Below, in pieces: positions 1-58,225 of a stretch of DNA of 64,000 nucleotides. Source of the DNA: Mytilus edulis. Taxonomy: Eukaryota. The notes below the pieces were generated by a model. That model searched no databases, was not told the origin of the DNA, and saw nothing but the letters and a program-made list of their open reading frames with translations. The translations under genes and the position numbers were made by a program. The stretch's first letter is position 1. Every line of letters begins with the position of its first letter. Location: assembly GCF_963676685.1 (NCBI RefSeq), contig NC_092346.1:5766001-5830000 (forward strand), in the 5' to 3' direction.

Positions 1-908
1 ATATAAGTAGGAAATATTCCTTTGAACAAGTTTTTTTAACTTCCTCTGTGAAATTTTTGAACTTTATTTCTTGCAATTACAAATGTTTTTCAAATCTTAA
101 TATGCATTAATATCTATATCTTCTTCGTTCCAAAGTCTTGTTCCAACAGATTTGTATATTGTTTTCTAAAAACATTTTGTAGTTCTGAATTAGGTCTTAG
201 TATTTATTAAATCAAATTCAAGAATTTAAATAACCTCAAATGGGATAAATTTGACAACTAATGCCGGACTGCTGGTGTAACAATTCAAAATACTAGTATG
301 TTTATAAGGACATAAAACATGTATCATTATTGCTAATTTGTTACATGTATAAATATATGTAGCAATTCAAAGTAGGATACCATTCAAAAACTATCTATTT
401 TTAGTAACAGTGTCTTTGACCTTTGAATGTTGACCAATAATTAATAAGTTTCCTATTACTTCCATCTATCTAATTTTAATTAAATCAAGAGAGGTAAACT
501 CAAGCTACCATTAAGAAAACCGTTTTACATTTTTTCCTTCTAGTTTTTAGAAACAGACTTTGACCTTTGACCTACTGACCGGAAAACATTAGACTTCTCT
601 CCTTTTCTTATCTCTTCTATCATAAATTTCATAACAATTAAGAAAGGGATGTTTTTGTACACACAGACAGACAAGCCAGACAGATTGTAAAAGATAAACC
701 AAAAAGGTTGAGAAAGACTGTCAGTATTTGTTACAGTGATTGACAGTCAAAATTAAATATTTGCAATAAACTCTTTGTAGAAGTTTCTTTTGGTTATTTG
801 TGTTGTTAGGTTGTAGTCTACTTATCCTTTTTTATTTTTGATGGTTGTTTTGAGACAGAAATTAAAACAGTGGAAGGAATTATTTTTTTCAGTTGACAAA
901 GGCATTAA

Positions 909-1638
909 GGTTCATCATAACAAACGGACAAATATGGCTGTATTTTCATGCCAAAAATTACTCTGAGTACAGACTTACCTGTGAAGTTGGACAAGTTTTA
1001 ATGCCTGGCATCCACTAGATATAATAAAGTTAAATGCATTTTGTGTTTCAGTAAGATAAAATCTCTTTTGGATTTTGATGGGCATTTTTTTTCCTTCATG
1101 CAAAAAGTGTGAAAATAAACTAATTTGTGATACAACTATGAGATGCTCCCTCAGGTAAAAAAAACTGGTTTGTACTGTTTTGATTGTCCTTAATTGACAA
1201 AGGGTGTGTTTGGATATACGCCTGAGGCATCCTATGGTTACCCATAGGTACCTATGGTTTGATATTTTGTGTATAAAATATCAAACCATAGGTACCTATG
1301 GGTAACTATAGGCCGCCTCAGGCGTATATCCAAACACCCCCATAGACAAGAGTTATCTTCACAACTACAGGTGAGTTAAAGAGTTTATCTGAGTCAGTGA
1401 GTGGACAGTATCAAAGTAATTCAGGTGTTTGTTTATTTTTACAGCTTCTGGAGAAAGGAACAAAAATGCCCATCAAAAACCAAGAAAGATTTTATCTTAA
1501 TCACAAAATGCATATAACTTTTATATATCTAGTGGATGCTAGGCATTAAAACATTCCAAACAGCACAGGTAAGTCTGTACACAGATTAGTTTTTGAGGTG
1601 AAAATACGGCCATATTTGTCCATTTGTTATGATGAACC
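909..1638. mobile_element. Non-autonomous TIR element (MITE) with TTAA TSD, Kolobok-like
   Basis: TTAA|GGTTCATCATAACAAA...TTTGTTATGATGAACC|TTAA with imperfect inverted arms over 130 bp. Purine-purine termini after TTAA fit Kolobok rather than piggyBac. Confidence 0.75.
1202..1341. mobile_element. Near-perfect 140-bp palindromic MITE nested in the 909-1638 element
   Basis: GGGTGTGTTTGGATATACGCCTGAGGC...GCCTCAGGCGTATATCCAAACACCCCC; arms pair to a centre near 1271. Confidence 0.7.
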
Positions 1639-1979
1639 TTAAACCAATAGAAGTCTGAAAGTTTAAGCAGGATCACCTGGTGATCATTTTTATGACACCA
1701 TGACAATAAAATTATGTAACAGGTGTTAAGTGTGGTGTTTATTTTTGCAGACTAGTATACATTATTGTTTAAAGGCAACTGAAGCACACCAGGAATTTTC
1801 GGTGTGTTGAAGACCCATTGGGCCTGTGGGCTGATTTCTGCTTGTTGGTTTGGTTGTTTAATAATCTCTGTGACACTTTCCCCACTTCTATTATCAATTA
1901 TAATCTATTAGTGGATAACCAATATATACACACTGATGTTCTCTGATATCAGTAGAATTGATTTATTTCTTTTGTTTAA

Positions 1980-15524: not shown

Positions 15525-18500
15525 GTATATTTTGTCAAAACACAAATCTTTATACTGTTTTTAAAATTATAAATGGATCAGATACTAACATTTCTATTTC
15601 TATCAAACTATTTATTATACATAAGCAATTTTTATCAATCTTTTTATTTTTTCTGAAGCTGTCTTTTGATTTGTGAAACTATTAAACATGTAGTAACTTT
15701 TAAAATTTGTCAGTTTCAAGGGAGATAATTAGTTATTTTTGTTGGATATCCAAATATCTAAATAGAGTTATTTCCCTTGTCACAATGCTGCACATACTTA
15801 GTTTGTTTAACTTTTTGTGGTTTGACTTGCTTATTCTATTGGACATGATAAAGAAAACATAGCAGCATGATATCAAACATGACAGGTAAAAAATAATAGA
15901 AGTTTTCTACACCAAATTTTCAAAAACAGCACAAAGGAAAGCATTGAAAATGGAAAAAAAGAATGTGTAAAATAGACGACATCCTGACCAAAGAGCAGAA
16001 CACAGCCAAAAGGCTACCAATGGGTCAGTTTCTGATCTGTAGGTGGGGGTCTATGAGTTGGAACCTCCTTTTTTATTTTCCAATCAATGCATTTGAAAAG
16101 GAAAATATGGTTGAAACCCCCAATTTGTCCCTTTTGGACATGGTAAATAAATGGCTGTATCTGCCCCTAATGTTCAACTGATATTTAAGGCATTTAATCA
16201 GTAAATATTTATAGTGAATGTTTTCATCTTTTTTTTCTTTTCAGAGTAAAAAGATACTAACATTTTTAGTATTTAATTTTATTTGTACCTTTGTGTTGTT
16301 AATATGGTGTCACACAACCAACAGTATGGGTAAGTATGGACTCCTTTGTTATATCATTTATTCATAGCAATATAAAAGGGACGAAAGAGGAAGAGTCAAA
16401 CTCATAAATCCAAAATAAACTGACAACGCCATGGCTAAAATGAAAAAGACAAATAGACAAATGATAGTACGCAAGAAACAGCATAGAAAACTAAAGACTG
16501 TGCAACACAAACCCCTTCAAAAGCTGGGGGTGATCTCAGGTAAGCCAGAAGGGTAACCAGATCCTGCTCCACATGTGGCACCCGTCGTGTTGCTCATGTT
16601 AATACATAATATATGATTGAATTATAAATCAATTTGAAATAAAAACAAATTAAGGTGTTCATAATCACTTTTAATTTTAAAACATTTATAAAATAATAGA
16701 TGCCATTTTCATACAAATGCTGGTCTTTTATTGGATGAAAGGTGAATCATTTGATTCCCTCATATGTTTCCAATTCACATTTTACATTACTTATACATGT
16801 ATATATATTCTATATATGAAAAATTGATACAAGTATTTGATATTATCATTGTATGATGAATATTTTTGGAGCTACATGTATCTTATCATCTTCATTTTGC
16901 AAATTTGAACTTTATGACCTTTTGTTGTTTGAAGGTCAATGGACAATTTCTGCCAAAGTTTTGTCTTATTGTTCTTTTTTCAGATTCGAAATGTTAATAA
17001 CAAAAATATTTTTATTTTAGAGAACTGTAAATATAAAAACTGAATGCTGTGTTTAATTTATAAAAAATGAAATCAAGCCATGATCACAATTTAGCAAGAA
17101 AGGCTTCCACTCATGCAAAATGTAAAGTTCACTTGCTTTCACATTCTATAAATTACCAACAAAATCACTTCAGTTCTATAACAAAAACTAACACATAAAA
17201 AGATACAAAAGTTAACCAAAATAGACGTCAATAGGCAATATGCATTTTTTAACAAGAAAAAGATATAATGTTCTGGTGAAAAGTTGTTTTTCTTTATTTT
17301 TCTAGCCTTAACAGCCTATACCTATCTCACAATGTTCGACTTTTTAAGGTAAGTTGTTTTATTGTCATTTATTACTTTCTTAATCTTTTGCTATAAGTCT
17401 TCAGGAAATTATTTATGAAGACACATAATTTGCTTGAAAATTACAGGAAAAAAAAGATGTGGAAGGTAGCAAGGGTACTTTCTTATGGTGGTACCCAACA
17501 CTTTCCCTAAAATTAATTTGGATAGTTTAATTTTCATAAAATTTTATCAAAGTATTTACTTAGACCCCTTTTACAAAAATATAAAAATTTCAAAAATTTT
17601 GAACTGTTTTGTCAGAAAAATTACACTGGTTATATAGCAGTTTGACAAACACCAATTTTGATCATTGAGAAGCTCAATATTCCCTTTACAACACAACGTA
17701 ATTAAAACGTTTAGCTGACTTAACAGAGTTATCTCTCTGTAGTGTTAGGTACCGATTTAACTCATGAGTAGAAGAAAAACTGACAGTACCAAGACAAAAA
17801 ACAGAAAATAGCAAAAAGTCCACAAAACACTAGATAGGAAACTAGAGACTGAGGTTGTTAAGTTAAGTTCGCTTCCAACCAACATTAGAAGGTCAGCATA
17901 TGATAATGAATATTGATGATTAACACTTCATTGTGAAATTGCACCTTTATATGGGTGTCATTTCCTGGTTGTATTAGTAAAGCTTAGGAAGGCTGTAAAG
18001 ACGATGGTAGTTTTTGATTATTTTGAAATCTCACCATAATAGGAGTTATTTCCTGATATGTAATCAGGTTTGCGTAAGACAGTAGTGGAGATTTAAGTTC
18101 TTTGTAAGATTTAAGATTTTAGGGTCGGCTTTTTAACATTCTCATTTATTTGCTATAAATGAGTAGGAATTAATGACGACATTATAATTTGCTGGGGAAA
18201 AAGACTGAAGATATCAAAGGGACATTTAAAACTCTCAAGTCGAAAAAAAACTGACAATGTAGTGAGCGAAGAGATCTGAACACTCCATATGAGAGTTATT
18301 TCTCTTCATTTATTTATTTGTAAAAGGTGAAATGGGATAGTCAGGCTATTCATTAGGAGGTGGTACCCGGTACTTTTACCCTCCTCCTTTTACCCTATAT
18401 ATAAAATATTCATGGAATAAATTGAAAAGTACCACCTAGAAACGTGGAAAGTACCAGTCAACATGAAAGATAATGAAACCCCTAGATAGTATCTCATAAG

Positions 18501-21500
18501 CAATTTAGTTATAGAGACCTAAAGAAAATTTGTAATTATCACTTCAGGTGAAATCGCACCTTATTATAGGTGTTATTTCCTGGTCTTGTAATTAACACTT
18601 GTGTAGACAATAAAGATCATGGTACACTAGATTTTGATTATTTTGTAAATTAAAGTTCAATGCAATTTCCAATAATTTTGTAGATTAAAGTTCATGTTAG
18701 TTTTCACTTAAAATGTACGTACATGTGTACTACAAAATTTAGAGTTCATATTAATTTTCACCTTTAAACTGTTAAAGTGTGTATGAAATCCCATCTTATT
18801 ATAGGTGTTATTTACTTTTCTTGTTAAAAAAGCTTGTGTAAGACCCTAAAGATTATGAAAGCGTTAGATTACATGTACTTGTGAATTAAAGTTCAATGCA
18901 ATTTTCAATTATTTTGTAGATTAAAGATCACGTTAATTTTCACTTTCGTTGCGTATGAAATCGCACCTTGTTATAGGTGTTACTTCCTGGTCTTGTTAAT
19001 AACACTTGCGTAAGACAAAAATTCATGGTAGTTTTTGCTAATTTTGTAAATTAAAGTTCAATGTAATTTTGTATTATTTTGTAGATCAAAAAGTTTTCAC
19101 TTAAAGTCACTGTACTACAAAAATCAAAGTTCATGTTAATTTTCACTTTTATTATGTATGGTACAAATCTGTAAATAATCTCCAGTGTTGACGCCTGTTT
19201 ATCATGAGTATTTGTTGTTTAGAATGTCAATGAAATAAAAATGTGTGTAGCAAACAAAAACCCACTTAAATATCAACATTATGAAAATTACGAAATCGAA
19301 CTCCCTGACTGCGATGAGAAGGACATATTTACACAAGAAAACACAAAAATCATAACCAAACACACATTAAAATGTATTGTAAATGACAAACATGATCATG
19401 AAGTTACAAATTAAATTTCAAAAAGAACCATGTTTTTGTTATGAAAATATTTTCCCCCTGATTCCACATAGTATTGGACATGATAAAGAGTAAAAAGTAA
19501 AATCACAAAAATACTGGACTCTAAGGAAAATTCAAAAAGGGAAGTCCCCAATCAAATGCCAAAATCAAAAGTTCAAACACATCAAACGAATGGATAACAA
19601 CTGTTATATTCCTGACTTGGTACAGGCATTTTCTAAGAAAACTAAGTGTGAATATATATTATGCACGCCCTTCCACAAAGAATTAAATGAAACTTTAACA
19701 CAATATGATAAAGAAGATGTGGTGGGATTGCCAATGAGACAACTTTTAAGAGACATAAGCTTATTTATGATTATTAAGAAATGATATCTGAAGCAAATTT
19801 TTTTTTAATATTTTACTGATAGATGCCAGACTTTTTTTTTTTTTTTCAGTTAACATTTAGTTGCAATTTGGTGTTAAATATTTTTATGTATCAAAAACTT
19901 TTACGAAAATCCTCACCAAAATACATAGTGCTTGGATTTTAACAAATCATATTAGAATCAAGAACCCCTTCTTTAATTCCTTGTGTCAAAGATTATGAAA
20001 ATTTACAACTTAGGAACATTTGCTTTGTATGCACCAGTCTCTTTCCCTAACCTAAAAGTGTACAAGCTGGGCCCTTTCAGCCATGTTAGTTTCTGGTTTG
20101 TTTGTATATTTACAAAATTCAAATATTTTTTCGCACATGTTATTATTCATTTATGTTTCTAAACAGCATAAACTGGTTAAAACTGGGAAGATATTTACAG
20201 TTTGAAACAAACATCGAAAAAAAAAGATGACCATGAACTGTAATCTACTGTATTATTCTATCAATCCCTGGTCACTGATTGATGTTATATTGTGATCATC
20301 CTTCTCATCTACTCTAAACTTTTGTCTTTTGTTTTATTTTTGTTTTCTTTTGTATTAAAGTTCATGTTAATTTTCCCATTTGTTTTGAATATTTCAAACT
20401 GTAAAAGGCTTTAAACCAGTTTCTTTTGTTTAGAAGAATCTGAATAGAATGGAAACTTGTCCTTTTTAAAGGATCAAGATATGAAAGAATTAGATTTAAG
20501 AAATTTACATCATTTATTTGTTTGTCATAACAGTTATTTGTAGGTATATATTTACAGCCTAAACTATGTACATTTTCATCCAACAAAAACATAAAATCCT
20601 ATTTGTCTTTTCAGTTTATTGGTATGTCTGTTGACTTTATGGGTACAGATACAAAAACCTACATCAACATATTCATTTGGGTATGAGAGTAATATACATT
20701 GTAATTCATCATAAAAGAGGGGCAAAAAATACTAGAGGGACAGTCAAACTCATAGATCCAAAACAAACTGACAATGCCATGGCTAAAAATGAAAAAGACA
20801 AACAGAAAAACAATAGTACACATGACACAACATAGAAAACTAAAGAATAAACAACACGAACCCCAACAAAAACTAGGGGTGATTTCATCATAAAAGAGGG
20901 GCAAAAGATACTAGAGGGACAGTCAAACTCATAGATCCAAAATAAAGTAACAATGCCATAGCAAAAAAATAATAAGACAAATAAACAAATAATAGTACAA
21001 AAAACACAACATAGAAAACTAAAGACTAAACAGCACGAACCCCACCAAAACTGGGGGAGATCTCAGGTGCTCCCGAAGGGTTAGCAAATCCTTCTGCACA
21101 TGTGGCACCCATCCTGTTGCTCATGTTATTACAAAACTGGTAAATAGTCTAATTTGGTAGGTCACATTCATGGTGAAAAGGAAAGTGAATTGTAATTACA
21201 ACTTGAGGAACATATCTGATATCATCTGTGAAATGGTTATTCAATAATGGTCAACCAATTCGTAATGGTGTCCGTAAAATTTATGAAGGGATGATTTCAA
21301 CTTCATCATTTAATTTTAACCCCCCCCCTCCCTCCAACACTTTTTTTTTCATAGATTGAAAATGGTGATTCAAAAAGGAATGTAATTGGTAATCCTCAAG
21401 TGCCAAATGCTACTGTGTGTAACAGTTAGTGAAAATAAGCCTGTAATTTTAATCAACATGCATCACATTGTATTTTTGAGCTACAATAAGTGAAAAACAG

Positions 21501-24500
21501 ATTTTCATTTTATTTTGCAATAAAAAAAACTTAAAATATCATGTGAGGTTGCCTTTTAGAACCCTAATCATATAATGTTGAAAGACCATTCTAAAAAACA
21601 GTTTTCTATGCACAGGACACATATTTTGGAATAATCTTCATCAAGTACACTTCAGTTTAGAAAGGCAATGGTAGTTATAAAAAAAGAAAATGTGGTATGA
21701 TTGCCAATTAGACAACTCTCCACAGGAGACCAAATGATATAGATATTAACAACTATAGGCCACTATACAGCCTTCACCAATGAGCAAAACCAATACTACA
21801 TAGTAATCTGTTAAAAACCCTTTTGTAAAACAATTGAAAAGAGAAAACTAATGTCCTAAATTTTGTACAAAATAATGAACGAAAAATAAATATGTACATA
21901 ATGTTATGGTTGACATATGAACTTGTTCATTTTGTTTTACAGATATGAAAGATATGAGGTATTAGGAGTATTTGCCAGTACCATGCTAGCACAGTTAGGA
22001 TCTTTGTTTATTTTAAAAGAAAGGTTAGTGGCTTGGTGTTGAACTCAATTAATGTTATAGAACAAAATAAAAAAGAATTCATGTATTCAAGGGAAAAATC
22101 TGTTGTGCCATAAATAAAAATATTACCAGTAGTGTAAAGAGCTAATTATTGGTTGCATGCACTAATTTTATGCCTGCAAAAATTTTATGCATGGAAAAAA
22201 ATGAAAACTAATCTGACTATGCGGTATGGGCTTTGCTCATTGTTGAAGACCGTACGGTGACCTATAGTTGTTAATGTCTGTGTCATTTTGGTCTTTTGTG
22301 GATAGTTGTCTCATTGGCAACCATACCACATCTTCTTTTTTGTATTGAAATAATTTCATGCATTCAAAGCACTTTTCTGGATTTATCAGTAATGCTCAAA
22401 GCCAAATATTTTTATGCCGAGGATTATATAAGAACTTAAACAGTTGGGAGAGCTGTTCGACAAAAAAAGTACCTAAAAATAACAAAATTCTTATAAGGTC
22501 AACTTTACTTCAGGAAGTTGGAAACCAATAATTTTGAAATGACCAACAATATAAAAATCCTTGTAAATCTAGTATCTAGAAGAGGATAGTGCTATACAAT
22601 TTTGAACTTGAAAGAAGTGTCATAAACTATATATTGTCATAAACTATATGTACAGTGACCTATAGTTGTTTAAAATGTCTGTGTCATTTTGGTCTCTTGT
22701 GGACAGTTTTCTCATTGGCAATCATAGCACATCTTCTTTTTTATATATGAATATAATTGATAGATTGAATGATTGGTGTTTAAGGTCACTTTGTACACTA
22801 TTGTGCTATTTCATGGTGTTTAAATTTTATTGGTGGAAGACGCAGGAGTTCTTTGAGAGAATTATCGACCATCAGTAGGAAAACTAACAATCCTGGCCAA
22901 TTAAGATTGGAGTTGAGCACACCTGCCTAGTGTGGGATTAGAACTAACATCCTCAGTGTTGACAGGCTAGTGAAGAAGTTGTGCAACAACTTACACTAAA
23001 CAGCCACCAAATCCCCAATATGAAAATGAAAAAACAATAAGGTGATGTGGTATGACTGCCATTGAGACATCTATCAAACAGAGATGTTTGTCTTCAATTT
23101 CAGCAACTATAGGTCAACATGCGGTCTTTAACAAGGAAAAAAACCATACATCCTGTTCATTTGACATTACTATGAAATTCTTCTTCAGCAGAAACTTTTT
23201 ATTTTTGATTATTTATTTCAATGTTGTAAATTGAAAAATATGAAATTTGTATTTTTTTACTTTCAGTGTAGAGCGAATGTTTATACAACCTGATATACAC
23301 ACGTAAGTCTTTGATTTAGTACTTTAAACCATACCTCTCCTTGATTCAGTACTTCAACCCACACAAGTCCTTGATTTAGTATGTTTCTCCACACAAATCC
23401 TTGATTTAGTACTTTTACCAACACAAGTCCTTGGAATATAACTTTTATCAACACTAAAACTTTGTTTGTTTTTTTAAATGACTTCATATGTATACCATAT
23501 AAAGGTAACAACATCAACTGTTTGTGTGATGCTTTGAAATTGGGGAAGATCAATGTTAATTACTGTGCCCTTAAAGAGGTTCCTCTTGATAGCAAAAATG
23601 ATATTTAAAATATATATCAATTACAAACGAAAGTGAACCAACGCCTGGTGAGTCTGTAGTACGGTAGAGTCCATAAAGTGGATACCTCGCCGGGTATGCA
23701 GGGTCGTTATGATAAAAAAACATAAAATGTAGAGAGTCTTATAACAACAACACTTTAGGGACTGCTGCAGAAAATTTATTGATCGACATGTTTCGGTGCC
23801 TAGGGCGCCGTCATCAGGATAAAAACAATACATAAAATCATGCTGAAGAACAAAATCTATACACAGCCTGACAACTTATTGTATTATTCTTTCCACGATG
23901 CAAGAGGACAAACACATGTTGGCAGAATAATTTTAACAAACATTTTCACAACAAAAACATTTTATTTTAATTTCTTTTTATAGTTTACTTCCATACTTAC
24001 AATGAACTTTCACTTTCACTTTCAGTTGCTATTAACAACGTTACTTACCATTGTAACATTGTGATGTTTAAATTTTAACAACCTGATTTTGTTCTTTAGC
24101 ATGATTTTATGTATTGTTTTTATCCTGATGACGGCGCCCTAGGCACCGAAACATGTCGATCAATAAATTTTCTGCAGCAGTCCCTAAAGTGTTGTTGTTA
24201 TAAGACTCTGCATTTTTAAATATATATATATTAAAAGTTTAACAAGTAAGGAAGAATAAAACAATACTGTGAAATCAGATAGTGCAGCTTTCACAGTGTA
24301 TTGACTTAATTTTCATTTTTTTTTAACACAGCTAAAATAAAGTTTAAAACAAATGGATATATATTTAGAAAATCTTTTGTTTAAATAAGTGTTTTCTTTT
24401 AATTTCAGAGGTAGATTGTTGATAGGTACATTGTTTGCCTTCTTTGTGCATTTTACCCTTACATACAGTATAAACAACAGAGCCATGAACCATGTTGTTG

Positions 24501-41223: not shown

Positions 41224-42184
41224 TTAGTTATTTCTTTCAGTGACTTCCAAACATTCAAGATAATAATCTATTCCAAAGTTAGTATTGCTTCTTATCAATT
41301 GTTGAGTTAAATCCAGCCTGCATTGATCACTTATCATGTGTGCAAGGGGTCCAAATATTGGTCTCTCGCCCTCTTCTACATCATTTTGATCCACATAGCC
41401 TTCAATTCCATAGTCTTGCAAATTTGCTTCTCGGTAATTCCTACGGCATTTTGAAGTTGACCTGAAGTCCACAAGCTCAATGGAGATGAATTAACAGTGC
41501 GTAGTCTATGACCAGCCCATGCCTCTGCCCAAAATTGCAGCTTCCTGTTTATTTCGCCCATGAAAACAAAGTGGAGAGCAGCTTAGTTTGTCAGTTTTAG
41601 TGGGTCTAGATAACCTTCATCTTCCATGAAATAAAATAATTTGTAAAAGTAACTAAGCACACCTTCATACACATCTCTCCATAGTCTTTTTCCCGTTACC
41701 ATACTGTTTGTGCCTTTTTGAATCAACATGTAGTTTGCCACAGAAACATTTTCCAATCCTTTGTCAGACCTAACTTTATTGGATATCCCATACTTTGCAA
41801 CACCGGAGAAGAAACAATCCAAAACTGTTCTTGATGTGTTGTTGTCGGTACATTTTAAAAATGTTATCAATCGACTAAACCCGTCAATGCCACCTACAAT
41901 TACAAATCTCCACTTTTTAGAACAGACTTTGGAATATCAAATTTCGGAGGGCCGCATTTAGAGTTTATTTTATTAGGGGCGGACGTTCCATATTTTACAC
42001 ATTCAGTTCTTAACTTCATCATATCTGCCCTACTAGATACACCTAATATTTCCATTTCATGTGTCGAAAGCCTACATACAATGTCTGGAGTGATTTTCTC
42101 TCTCTCAAAGTTTGGAAATGCTTGCTGCAAGTTTAATTTCTGTAAAAAAATTAACATTTTAGTATTCACAGCCATGGCCGCCAT
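41224..42184 (-). pseudogene. IS3EU-like DDE transposase pseudogene with SAM-like N-terminus
   Basis: WRFVIVGGIDGFSRLITFLKCTDNNTSRTVLDCF...KVRSDKGLEN...RLWRDV...LHFVF...AWAGHRLRT..SPLSLW. Contains an in-frame stop, frameshifts, and apparent deletions of the HTH/first-Asp region and of the NQRIE (catalytic Glu) segment expected in this family. Confidence 0.85.
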
Positions 42185-55233: not shown

Positions 55234-57284
55234 TATATAAATGCAAGAAAACTCAGGACATAGCAATACATAAATAAATAATAGTACATTACATCATATA
55301 AACCCAAGAATAACAAATATGCATCTTATATTTGATTACTCCTTGCCCTCCCAAAACTCTCCATATTTTGCTTCTTCTAAGATTCCCTGTTTAACAGAAT
55401 TTCAGAAAAGACAAGGCAACTAAAACGGAGTGACAAACGTCGGTTACGTACCACATGTTTGATATGATATTGTTTGACTGTTTAAAAATGAATCGATTGG
55501 ACGGAAATAAATATTTTGAAAACAAGTTATGATTTGAAGACAATAATGACAAACAAAGGTTAATAAATCAGCAGTATCGTCTGGGATAAACTAATGGTTT
55601 CGTTGGGATTAGAAATTCCGGCAGAACAAATAACATCCTTCATATTTGACATGGCGTTCACATCCATTGTTATTCGATAAACATCATGAATGTGAAGGAC
55701 TTGGATGGCAAACTTTCTCGTTCAGTCTTTACCATACAAATTTTAAAAGAAACCTTTTGATTATATAGCTTTAAAGTCACATGAACAAGATTCTGTATTC
55801 TTTTAAATAATAATCTTAAAATGCAATATTGAATTATTGCAAAGCCAAATGAGTTTGTACCTAGTCAGAAATATGGCAGTTGTTATCTAAAAGTTCGTTT
55901 TTATGTATGTTGCGTTGTTGTTTGTTTTTTGTTCCACTTCATTGTTCTGTTATTTCCTTGTATTGCTATAGATGATGTGTTTCACTTGGGTTTTATTTTG
56001 TTATCCGGATTTTTTTTCTCTCAATCGATTTATGACTTTGGAACAGCGGTTTACCACTGTTGACTTTATTTTTACAGGGGTAAATGTGGCTCTACATGAT
56101 ATATAAGGGTCCATGCGATTCCCTCCGTTTTTGTTTATTACTTTGATTTGTTTCTACCTTATCAATTGATGAGATTGAAACATCGGTAAGCTTTTGTCGC
56201 CTTAATCTATGTGTATTGATATACAGTTATGAACAATTATGGTCCTACATACTATACTTATATGTTGGCATTGTACAAAGATATGCTTTTGTTTATGACG
56301 TCTATACACTAAATTTGGTGAATGTGTACATAAATATTGATATTTTAGTCTTGGAGAAAAAAGATTATCTATAAGTTACAATGAGCATTGAACCAGCTTT
56401 CAGTGTCTGCAAGTTCTTTAGATTTGTCCGGTTTAAAAATGGTCTTTTAAGTACGGTATTTTTGTGATTTGTGTTAGTCTGCGTTTGAAACACTCTTTCT
56501 AACTGTTTCTGTACTCTGTTATTGTGTTATGCAGTCAAACTTCCGTTCAGTTTTGTGGAGGGCTGGGCGTTAATCGATATATTTAAATCCAAGTATTTTG
56601 GTATTTGGTTGATAGTGGTCACATTGGCAGTAACACAACCTCTCCTTATTCTGATATGTGTTAAAAACATAAAATAAAATGTAATATAAAATAGCTATCA
56701 GGAAATACAGATCTGCTTCAAGTGAAATGGTGAACTATATGACAAATACTCTATATCAAAACAGTTTCTGCATTGGAGCAAGAACTATACTGATAATTCC
56801 TTAGTGTATTCAGTTCTTGTTTTTGTAGTTTTCTGAGTAGTGTTATTGGACTGTTATGTTTTGCTTTTCATTCTTTTCTTTCAGTAATGTTTTAGTCTAA
56901 TAATTTTTAGATTAGTTTATGTTTGCCATCTCAGTATGTTCGTCCATACATATTTTTTTAATGTAAAGATAAAAACTGTTCTATCATTAATATAATTTTT
57001 ATTGATTATATATATATTTATTGAGCATACATGTGCGAGACATTTATACAAATAAAAAAGCACATAAAGGGATAGAATAATTATTTTTTTGCCAATTACA
57101 AGAGATTCAAAACATCTTATCTAAGACATCGTTTTTTGTTCCATTGGTGTGTTCTGTTTATGATGTCGAATTCATATTATTTTTTAAAACATTAAAATTA
57201 ACTTGAAATTTAAGATTAAGAAAGTTAAAATTTCTGGTGATTTACAGAGATGTAAAACATATCATTTTCCAATCATAATAGTTC

Positions 57285-58225
57285 TTCGGAGGACGTGTTT
57301 TTCAACAGACTGTCGGCATCCCAATGGGAACAAACTGTGCCCCTCTACTTGCCGACTTGTTTCTTTATTATTATGCGGCTGACTTCATACAGGAACTTAA
57401 TAGGAAGAAAGATAAGAAGTTAGCAATATCCTTTAACTCTACTTTCCGCTATATAGATGACGTTCTTTCACTAAACAATTCAAAATTTGATGACTATGTG
57501 GAACGCATCTATCCCATCGAATTGGAGATAAAGGATACTACAGATACAGTTAAGTCGGCTTCATATCTTGACTTACATCTAGAAATTGACAATGAGGGTC
57601 GGTTGAAAACAAAACTTTACGACAAAAGAGATGATTTCAGCTTTCCAATTGTGAACTTTCCATTTCTAAGTAGCAACATTCCAGCAGCACCTGCATACGG
57701 GGTATATATCTCCCAATCGATACGATATTCCCGTGCTTTCATTTCCTATCATGATTTTCTTGATAGAGGGTTACTGCTCACAAGGAAGCTATTAAACCAA
57801 GAGTTCCAAATGGTGAAGATGAAATCATCCCTTCGTAAATTTTACGGACGCCATCACGAGTTGGTTGACCGTTATGGAATAACCGTTTCACAAATGATAT
57901 CGGATATGTTCCTTACGTCGTAACTACAATCCCCTTCCCTTTCATGAATGTGACCTACCGAATTAGACTATTTACCGGATTTGTAATCACATAAGCAACA
58001 CGACGGGTACCACATGTGGAGCAGGATCTGCTTACCCTTCCGGAGCACCTGAGATCACCCCTAGTTTTTGGTGGGGTTCGTGTTGTTTATTCTTTAGTTT
58101 TCTATGTTGTGTCATGTGTACTATTGTTTTTCTGTTTGTCTTTTTCATTTTTAGCCATGGCGTTGTCAGTTTGTTTTGGATTTATGAGTTTGACTGTCCC
58201 TTTGGTATCTTTCGTCCCTCTTTTA
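57285..58225 (+). mobile_element. 5'-truncated Penelope-like retroelement, Naiad-type (RT C-terminal half plus 3' non-coding end)
   Basis: FGGRVFQQTVGIPMGTNCAPLLADLFL...FRYIDDVLSLNN...YLDLHL...LYDKRDDFSFPIVNFP (ORF 57324-57923). The ORF stops after the thumb with no C-terminal GIY-YIG. Confidence 0.88.

What the first reader, a model, noticed from the sequence alone, without database searches (positions are those of the whole stretch)
23618..24212. Inverted pair of hammerhead ribozymes inside a ZnT6 intron
Seen: two 125-bp inverted arms 227 bp apart, each with an intact core (CUGAUGA...GAAAC-AU-GUC). One is sense to the ZnT6 pre-mRNA (cleavage after 24157) and the other is its exact antisense. 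Known: minimal type I hammerheads with a palindromic stem III characterise Penelope-like pseudo-LTRs, generally need dimerisation to cleave well, and PLEs make inverted insertions. Inference: the pre-mRNA contains a ribozyme together with its own upstream antisense blocker. The arms would form a 125-bp dsRNA stem about 200 nt before the next acceptor, a possible ADAR or Dicer substrate. The inversion may explain why a sense ribozyme is tolerated here. No same-strand partner is present, so activity may be low.
Basis: partly seen in the sequence, partly recalled or inferred. Interest (0 to 1): 0.7.

Follow-up and report, generated by a model that had tools for sequence, protein, structure and literature searches.

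The report
Penelope insertion with twin RNA starts
The two mirror-image ribozyme motifs in this zinc-transporter intron are one back-to-back insertion of a jumping-gene family, likely a harmless by-product rather than a switch for the host gene, but the family shows that such insertions carry one end from each of two matching predicted RNA folds, which likely tell two copying enzymes where to start.

Summary
Observation confirmed: 125-bp inverted arms (one mismatch), each with a minimal hammerhead, inside a spliced ZnT6 intron. They form one head-to-head insertion of a 1,074-bp non-coding Penelope-like element (67 exact cores in the genome) whose RT + GIY-YIG parent shares the pLTR at 90%. Inverted pLTRs, opposite-strand hammerhead pairs and a one-sided tail are published. 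The idea of a selected antisense blocker is unsupported: the shape is routine for the family, the ribozyme is monomer-type and carries a stem II mismatch in both arms, and RNA reads show normal splicing and no cleavage ends; editing could not be tested. What the family adds: element ends fall at two sites 107 nt apart; 22 of 22 automatically paired insertions, and 13 sister-family pairs, have one end of each kind, mostly with 13-bp target duplications. Each site lies in the loop of a homologous three-helix RNA module, with compensatory changes between modules and in a held-out family. Likely two RTs start on one RNA, one per module and per target strand. This scan noted twin priming in other genomes and the parent's extra zinc-finger ORF in this one; I found no note or paper on the twin module.

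The parts
23267..23302 (+). ZnT6-like exon upstream of the insertion
   Evidence: joint 23302>24409 with GT..AG in 16 reads, 4 of 4 RNA runs; gene identity from a downstream exon
23303..24408 (+). 1,106-nt intron; the element fills more than half of it
23604..23617 (.). left copy of the AT-rich target-site duplication (about 13 bp)
   Evidence: 10 nt shared with the right flank in this haplotype; the right-flank variants seen in runs X1 and X10 (tables 3-4) make it 14 nt by my reading
23618..23857 (-). left arm: unit positions about 236-476 of the 1,074-bp non-autonomous element; outer end is the B start site; includes the 107-nt tail
   Evidence: 98.8% to L007
23618..23645 (-). 5' half of RNA module B, cut in its loop by the element end
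23676..23755 (-). complete RNA module A (P1-UU-P2 with start-site loop-CCUGCA-P3-P1')
   Evidence: descriptor scan of 23001-25000 finds only this one; covariation
23782..23820 (-). minimal type I hammerhead, antisense to ZnT6; predicted cut after 23785; stem II mismatch at 23807
23856..23857 (.). head-to-head junction of the two arms, 2-nt microhomology
23856..24216 (+). right arm plus spacer: unit positions 1-369; outer end is the A start site
   Evidence: 96.7% to L007
23858..24084 (+). the 227-nt spacer: element sequence, a decayed remnant of the parent's ORF3 end and 3' UTR
   Evidence: local alignment to L111; 80.6% over 377 nt to L112
24122..24160 (+). minimal type I hammerhead, sense to ZnT6; predicted cut after 24157; U>C at 24135 weakens stem II (-5.0 vs -8.9 kcal/mol)
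24187..24216 (+). 5' half of RNA module A, cut in its loop by the element end
24214..24228 (.). right copy of the target-site duplication, slightly changed in this haplotype
24409..24552 (+). next ZnT6-like exon (end read from the first GT donor in the sequence)

Best explanation
This is one head-to-head insertion of a 1,074-bp non-coding Penelope-like element with a 13-bp-type target duplication, likely made when the parent's endonuclease nicked both target strands and two reverse transcriptases each copied the element's RNA from a different one of two matching predicted RNA modules. Shown: family, parent, architecture, two end sites 107 nt apart, one end of each kind per two-armed insertion, modal 13-bp duplication, variants shared between arms, each end site in the loop of a homologous fold. 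Inferred steps: staggered nicks about 13 nt apart; the top-strand 3' end at about 23617 primed in the module B loop and copied about 240 nt; the bottom-strand 3' end at about 24216 primed in the module A loop and copied about 360 nt; both ran through the uncut hammerhead (template uncleaved or circular); the two cDNA ends were joined by 2-nt microhomology. The antisense arm is then a by-product. In the pre-mRNA the duplex would form, the ribozyme is likely near-silent, and the intron is spliced normally.
For: Family: 42 matches among 40 scored of 233 candidates; 67 exact 33-nt cores, control 0; non-coding 1,074-bp tandem unit. Parent L111: RVT_1 E 1.3e-10, GIY-YIG E 4.8e-8, pLTR 89.8% over unit 229-472. 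Ends: 40 A and 43 B of 83; 22 of 22 automatic pairs are A+B; shared flank 13 nt in 11, 9-15 nt in 21; 0.5^21 is about 5e-7 if ends were chosen independently. Sister families: 7 of 7 pairs that I picked are A+B, 6 with 13 nt; in 20 further loci 6 of 6 pairings with a duplication of 11 nt or more are A+B. Arms share 20 non-consensus letters against 4.9 in shuffled pairs (max 13 of 2,000), 4 of them found in no other of 91 segments, two in arms 4.8 and 5.6 kb apart. Modules: 99.5% of cells paired over six families; A against B 98.8% paired, 8 of 15 pairs changed on both sides; the held-out family L237 has both modules with further compensatory changes, 0 of 300 shuffles have two. In vitro a Poseidon PLE nicks and extends both strands, starts at two internal sites that bound the tail, is modelled as a dimer and uses uncleaved RNA (PMC11167929).
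Against: No biochemistry here; that the modules act as RNA and position RT is inferred from where genomic copies end. Within each module class most pairs never vary (only one two-sided change each in P2 of A and of B), and the A-versus-B changes are largely one ancient duplication counted many times; the count of pairs changed on both sides did not beat the shuffle (225 of 500). Shared arm variants also fit two RNAs from one source locus or later gene conversion. One of the 22 pairs has no duplication (3 nt) and is a rearranged copy; 39 of 83 ends were unpaired, several in two-armed copies that I could not resolve. One search also printed two B+B pairings and one B+A with only 6-7 shared letters; I read the B+B ones as internal ends but did not inspect them base by base. 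End positions blur over about 10 nt because of AT microhomology. PMC11167929 saw no difference in start site between strands in vitro. No empty allele of this site was seen. RNA evidence is shallow (6-18% of four runs).
Confidence: 0.7

Rival explanations
1. One RT primes at one site; the second arm comes from fold-back or self-priming and the second end is cut by the endonuclease at a matching motif read as DNA, so only one module is a priming site.
For: PMC8557442 ascribes the tail to endonuclease resolution of the intermediate; PMC3846280 proposes self-priming on an antisense template. This also gives one end of each kind and shared variants.
Against: Both end sites sit at the same place in homologous folds, some 15-30 nt 5' of the CCUGCA motif, and both occur as the only called end of one-armed copies. 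Several B arms stop near module A (unit 392-407 in L039, L063, L067), as expected if two RTs share one RNA. G-U pairs occur in the stems. The window's junction is a 2-nt microhomology, not a palindrome.
Confidence: 0.2
2. The inverted arm is kept by selection because it blocks a ribozyme that would otherwise cut ZnT6 pre-mRNA, or the duplex regulates ZnT6 through editing or small RNAs.
For: The duplex is very stable and the antisense arm is transcribed first. The insertion seems shared by runs of different species labels. Retrozymes are depleted from Xenopus introns (bioRxiv 2026.07.22.740005).
Against: Two-armed copies are routine (44 of 83 ends); the ribozyme is monomer-type, misfolds alone and has a stem II mismatch in both arms; the arms are drifting apart (three differences); splicing is normal, no pile of read ends at 24157, A>G places 2-6 against C>T 12-16 (though those reads are almost all from other copies).
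Confidence: 0.05
3. The palindrome is itself a mobile unit (MITE-like) or arose after insertion by rearrangement of tandem copies.
For: Long terminal inverted arms with a target duplication; a few loci look segmentally duplicated (L037/L058, L118/L124).
Against: Each two-armed insertion has its own junction and length (about 260 bp to 5 kb); none repeats the window's 236/1 junction among the 42 clusters; rearrangement would not give strict A+B ends with 13-bp duplications.
Confidence: 0.05

Closest known systems
Insertion units of endonuclease-positive Penelope-like elements: inverted 5'-truncated pLTR with a tail at one end (PMC3846280, PMC8557442; passages read)
   Same: Head-to-head arms, AT-rich target, target duplication, tail on one arm only, hammerhead in the pLTR, partial tandems.
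   Different: Tail 107 nt instead of 30-40; duplication 13 bp (8-10 in Adineta); A+B pairing is strict where the papers say optional or often; each end lies in a duplicated RNA module not described in the passages or searches I saw.
PAc, the Poseidon element studied in vitro (PMC11167929; parts 1-2 of 4 read)
   Same: Two internal start sites bounding the tail, downstream of the hammerhead, in a stem-loop; AT-rich targets; no RNA reads ending at the ribozyme cut.
   Different: PAc's sites lie inside the ORF, which starts in the hammerhead; here the AUG in the core meets a stop after four codons and the sites lie upstream of ORF1 in two separate modules.
Minimal hammerheads of metazoan PLEs (PMC4209133; parts 1-2 of 4 read)
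   Same: Extra base after A9, G10.1-C11.1, 6-bp stem II, short stem I, small palindromic stem III; that paper already reports pairs 100-700 bp apart on opposite strands.
   Different: This copy has a broken stem II pair in both arms.
Non-LTR retrozymes of mussels and vertebrates (PMC7229834 passages; bioRxiv 2026.07.22.740005 part 1 of 5 and passages)
   Same: Non-coding tandem units, one type I hammerhead per unit, PLE-derived.
   Different: Unit 1,074 bp, not 350-390; PLE-type minimal ribozyme; descent from an identified coding parent; circles not shown.
Neptune element of killifish with a separate upstream ORF (PMC12602865, passages)
   Same: Short ORF1 separate from the RT + GIY-YIG ORF, as in L111 and L169.
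   Different: The parents here carry a third ORF with two C2H2 fingers whose start abuts the endonuclease stop.

Membership tests
EN+ Penelope-like elements (parent L111/L169) | RT with C-terminal GIY-YIG endonuclease | tested here: met
   RVT_1 E 1.3e-10, GIY-YIG E 4.8e-8 at residues 661-744 of 755; sister 61% identical
EN+ Penelope-like elements (parent L111/L169) | pLTR with hammerhead; partial tandem and inverted copies | tested here: met
   L169 has two direct and one inverted hammerhead-bearing repeats; L111 has only the 3' pLTR
EN+ Penelope-like elements (parent L111/L169) | single ORF | tested here: not met
   three ORFs in both full-length parents; a separate ORF1 is also reported for a fish Neptune (PMC12602865)
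Neptune/Nematis clades | CX2-5CxxC linker before the endonuclease and CCHH motif (PMC8557442) | tested here: met
   read by eye in the translations
Neptune/Nematis clades | placement on the RT tree | not tested
   no reference set fetched; Neptune and Nematis not told apart
Non-autonomous PLE derivative (window family) | shares pLTR with a coding element, non-coding itself | tested here: met
   89.8% over unit 229-472; 81% over 70 nt with the ORF1 start; six-frame translation full of stops
Non-autonomous PLE derivative (window family) | target duplication at AT-rich sites, tail at one end | tested here: met
Minimal type I hammerhead of PLEs | core, base after A9, G10.1-C11.1, palindromic stem III, covarying stems | tested here: met
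   stem II 5 of 6 pairs and stem I 1 of 3 changed on both sides over six families
Minimal type I hammerhead of PLEs | self-cleavage as dimer or with protein | not testable with these tools
   no pile of ends at 24157 in four shallow RNA runs
Non-LTR retrozymes | tandem non-coding units with a type I hammerhead each | tested here: met
   1,074-bp units, about two per arm at most
Non-LTR retrozymes | short unit of about 170-400 nt | tested here: not met
   1,074 bp
Non-LTR retrozymes | abundant circular RNA | tested here: inconclusive
   family RNA is low and mostly sense; these reads cannot tell circle from tandem

The most novel reading that the evidence does not exclude
Neptune-type Penelope RNAs carry a duplicated three-helix module that is the docking site of the RT-endonuclease: each module loads one subunit of a dimer and sets one start site in its loop, so a single RNA is copied from both strands of a 13-nt staggered cut. 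The tail is simply the distance between the modules. This would give the inverted-repeat-plus-tail signature of PLEs a defined RNA structure and a 250-nt testable substrate.
Probability: 0.5. Interest if true: 0.65.

Novelty: new variant of a known kind. Interest (0 to 1): 0.38.

Why it matters
As a ZnT6 feature it is ordinary: a Penelope-type insertion in an intron that is still spliced. As a record of mechanism it matters modestly. How PLEs make inverted ends with a one-sided tail is open (PMC8557442 calls the cycle undefined; PMC11167929 maps two start sites but not the second end). Here a strict one-of-each rule, a 13-bp stagger and two homologous RNA folds, conserved over seven families, predict exactly where RT should start and what should happen when a module is removed or swapped, and a full-length coding parent (L169) is available for the test.

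Tried and rejected
Rfam found no hammerhead or other relevant family in the window or in three loci with whole modules. BLAST of the unit against itself did not find the A/B homology; it appeared only by fold and alignment. Pfam gave nothing for two single ZnT6 exons; PDB gave ZnT7 at E 0.06 for one and nothing useful for the other; one search settled the gene. Editing, small RNAs and cleavage at this locus could not be read from four RNA runs. No empty allele in four DNA contig sets; contigs show presence, not absence, and X5 does not cover the junctions. A module-B pattern in metagenome contigs gave 14 hits, 11 without hammerhead or module A, taken as chance, so I cannot say how far beyond mussels the module reaches. 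ORF3 had 6 homologues among 106 candidates, the two named ones from Mytilus (lengths 114-364 aa only). No ORF remnants by tblastn in 20 sister loci. I did not test intron versus intergenic placement (no annotation), build an RT tree, or fold proteins. Figures of the papers and bioRxiv supplements were not visible; the three text supplements of PMC11167929 had none of my four terms, and its Fig. S2C on RNA folding may bear on the novelty of the module.

Full report
Observation. The arms are as described: 23733-23857 and 24085-24209, one mismatch, 227 nt apart, each with a hammerhead core and predicted cuts after 24157 (+) and 23785 (-). My core pattern matches nowhere else in the window. The pair folds into one long duplex (z -32); the sense ribozyme alone does not adopt the hammerhead fold (z 0.10). 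Rfam has no hit. The host gene is ZnT6-like, and the 1,106-nt intron 23303-24408 is removed in 16 reads from 4 of 4 RNA runs. The host is likely a Mytilus mussel, inferred from named homologues.

Family. The arm has 42 matches among the 40 scored of 233 candidates, and the 33-nt family core occurs exactly 67 times (control 0). The family is a non-coding 1,074-bp unit found in partial tandems. The window copy is unit 236-476 reversed, joined by 2 nt of microhomology to unit 1-369; the spacer is element sequence. Both arms carry U>C in stem II, seen in 2 of 61 motifs, these two, which lowers the hairpin from -8.9 to -5.0 kcal/mol.

Parent. The best GIY-YIG hit of 150 scored lies 850 bp upstream of an exact core. 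Locus L111 has ORF1 (183 aa), an RT + GIY-YIG ORF (749 aa from its first Met), ORF3 (208 aa, two C2H2 fingers, acidic tail, start overlapping the previous stop) and a pLTR 89.8% identical to unit 229-472. Similarity drops outside the hammerhead-to-B stretch, so that stretch is the conserved cis signal (inference). A full-length sister, L169 (61% protein identity), has the same three ORFs, two direct pLTRs and an inverted one; further sisters carry ORF3. The linker motif points to Neptune or Nematis (PMC8557442); no tree was built. A separate ORF1 is known in a fish Neptune (PMC12602865, passages). ORF3 did not turn up in my paper searches but was noted earlier by this scan in the same genome.

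Two ends, one of each. Element 3' ends cluster at unit 360-377 (A, 40 ends) and 469-484 (B, 43 ends). I first picked 17 of 42 clusters that had both outer ends resolved; all were A+B. An automatic pairing on the larger set gave 22 of 22 A+B, with 13 shared flank letters in 11 and 9-15 in 21; one pair has none and is a rearranged copy; 39 ends stayed unpaired, among them two near-identical loci with a short inverted B arm and a 13-nt duplication, and several two-armed copies I could not resolve. In sister families 7 of 7 hand-picked pairs were A+B, 6 with 13 nt. In 20 further loci, 13 gave a single end; of 9 pairings printed, the 6 with duplications of 13-15 nt were all A+B, one B+A shared 7 nt and two B+B shared 6 nt. 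The window is B left, A right; its duplication is 10 nt here and 14 nt by my reading of the variants in X1 and X10. In 20 pairs the arms share 20 non-consensus letters against 4.9 when partners are shuffled (max 13 of 2,000), and differ at 39 against 62.6: both arms come from one source, though one RNA, two RNAs of one locus and gene conversion are not told apart.

Twin RNA module. Both end sites lie in the AU-rich loop of the same descriptor, P1-UU-P2[loop]-CCUGCA-P3-P1', 107 nt apart. It parsed for 11 of 12 modules in six families; the twelfth has an insertion. RNAalifold predicted the hammerhead stems, module A and P2 of B unprompted. Counted pairs: 99.5% paired over six families, most two-sided changes being in hammerhead stem II; A against B, 98.8% paired, 8 of 15 pairs changed on both sides, a count that shuffles reach in 225 of 500 while the covariation score is reached in 0 of 500 (relatedness inflates this). 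A seventh family from metagenome contigs, not used to derive the fold, has both modules with new compensatory changes in P1 and P2; 0 of 300 shuffles had two modules, 2 had one. Rfam does not know the module.

Mechanism. Outward-facing 3' ends, each beside a copy of the duplication, are what priming on both target strands gives. PMC11167929 (parts 1-2 of 4) shows in vitro nicking and extension of both strands, two start sites bounding the tail, a modelled dimer and uncleaved RNA as template. I infer two RTs, one per module, on one RNA; B arms that stop near module A (L039, L063, L067) fit this. Both window arms cross the cut site intact, so the template was uncut or circular. The main rival is one priming event with endonuclease resolution or self-priming (PMC8557442, PMC3846280; passages).

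Host effect. The duplex would form in the pre-mRNA, but nothing here points to selection for it. Single min-HHRs showed no cleavage in vitro and opposite-strand pairs 100-700 bp apart are already described (PMC4209133, parts 1-2 of 4). In RNA, unique intron bins have zero depth, 49 of 49 reads at 24135 and 36 of 38 at 23807 carry the family letter, no ends pile up at 24157, and A>G places are fewer than C>T (6-18% of each run read). Contigs of X1 and X10 bridge the right junction; X1, X2 and X10 reach 18-25 bases into the left end, short of the tool's 31-base rule; no empty allele was seen. The insertion is therefore likely old and shared, which is not evidence of function.

Novelty and verdict. 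The inverted ribozyme pair is a known PLE by-product. Twin priming has been inferred by this scan in other genomes (unchecked notes, seen after I had stated the same reading). The duplicated module, the 107-nt tail and the strict pairing did not appear in my paper searches (listings, plus the papers named) or in the scan's notes. PMC7229834 and bioRxiv 2026.07.22.740005 were read in passages and part 1 of 5. Verdict: new variant of a known kind, interest 0.38.

Noticed in passing
window 24510-24744: A 60-bp unit repeated four times duplicates the 3' end of the ZnT6-like exon with its splice donor, giving four candidate donors 60 nt apart; each unit also has an AG 42 nt before the donor; reading through the first donor meets TGA.
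   Followed up: no
L111:2912-6347, L169:1939-5659, L163-L167: The parent clade has three ORFs; ORF3 (two C2H2 fingers, a conserved KWxPPxEA-type block, acidic tail) starts at or next to the endonuclease stop in at least four families. Also noted earlier by the scan (e1-9033574).
   Followed up: partly
L213, L214, L215 (G000 C8, C9, C2): A sister non-coding family with an 879-bp unit forms arrays of up to five whole units with the same hammerhead and twin modules; another has a unit of about 1,080 bp (L181). Long arrays suggest rolling-circle or template-jump copying.
   Followed up: partly
window 57282-57920 (+); repeats at 16437, 20712-21311, 57808-58225: Fragment of a PLE-type RT (RVT_1 E 0.003; Naiad-like is my recalled label) and related repeats in the opposite orientation elsewhere in the window.
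   Followed up: no
window 905-1642: Nested inverted arms around a near-perfect hairpin at 1194-1349, probably a MITE; gives chance microRNA hits in Rfam.
   Followed up: no
window 41586-41936 (-): Integrase core fragment (rva_4, E 2e-34).
   Followed up: no
L077 near G000:C3:67529711; L089 and L110: Other, unrelated hammerhead-like motifs beside fetched loci.
   Followed up: no
L007:1527-1802 and sisters: A conserved UGCAG just after the hammerhead was paired by RNAalifold with the CUGCA of a module; a possible long-range contact or switch.
   Followed up: no
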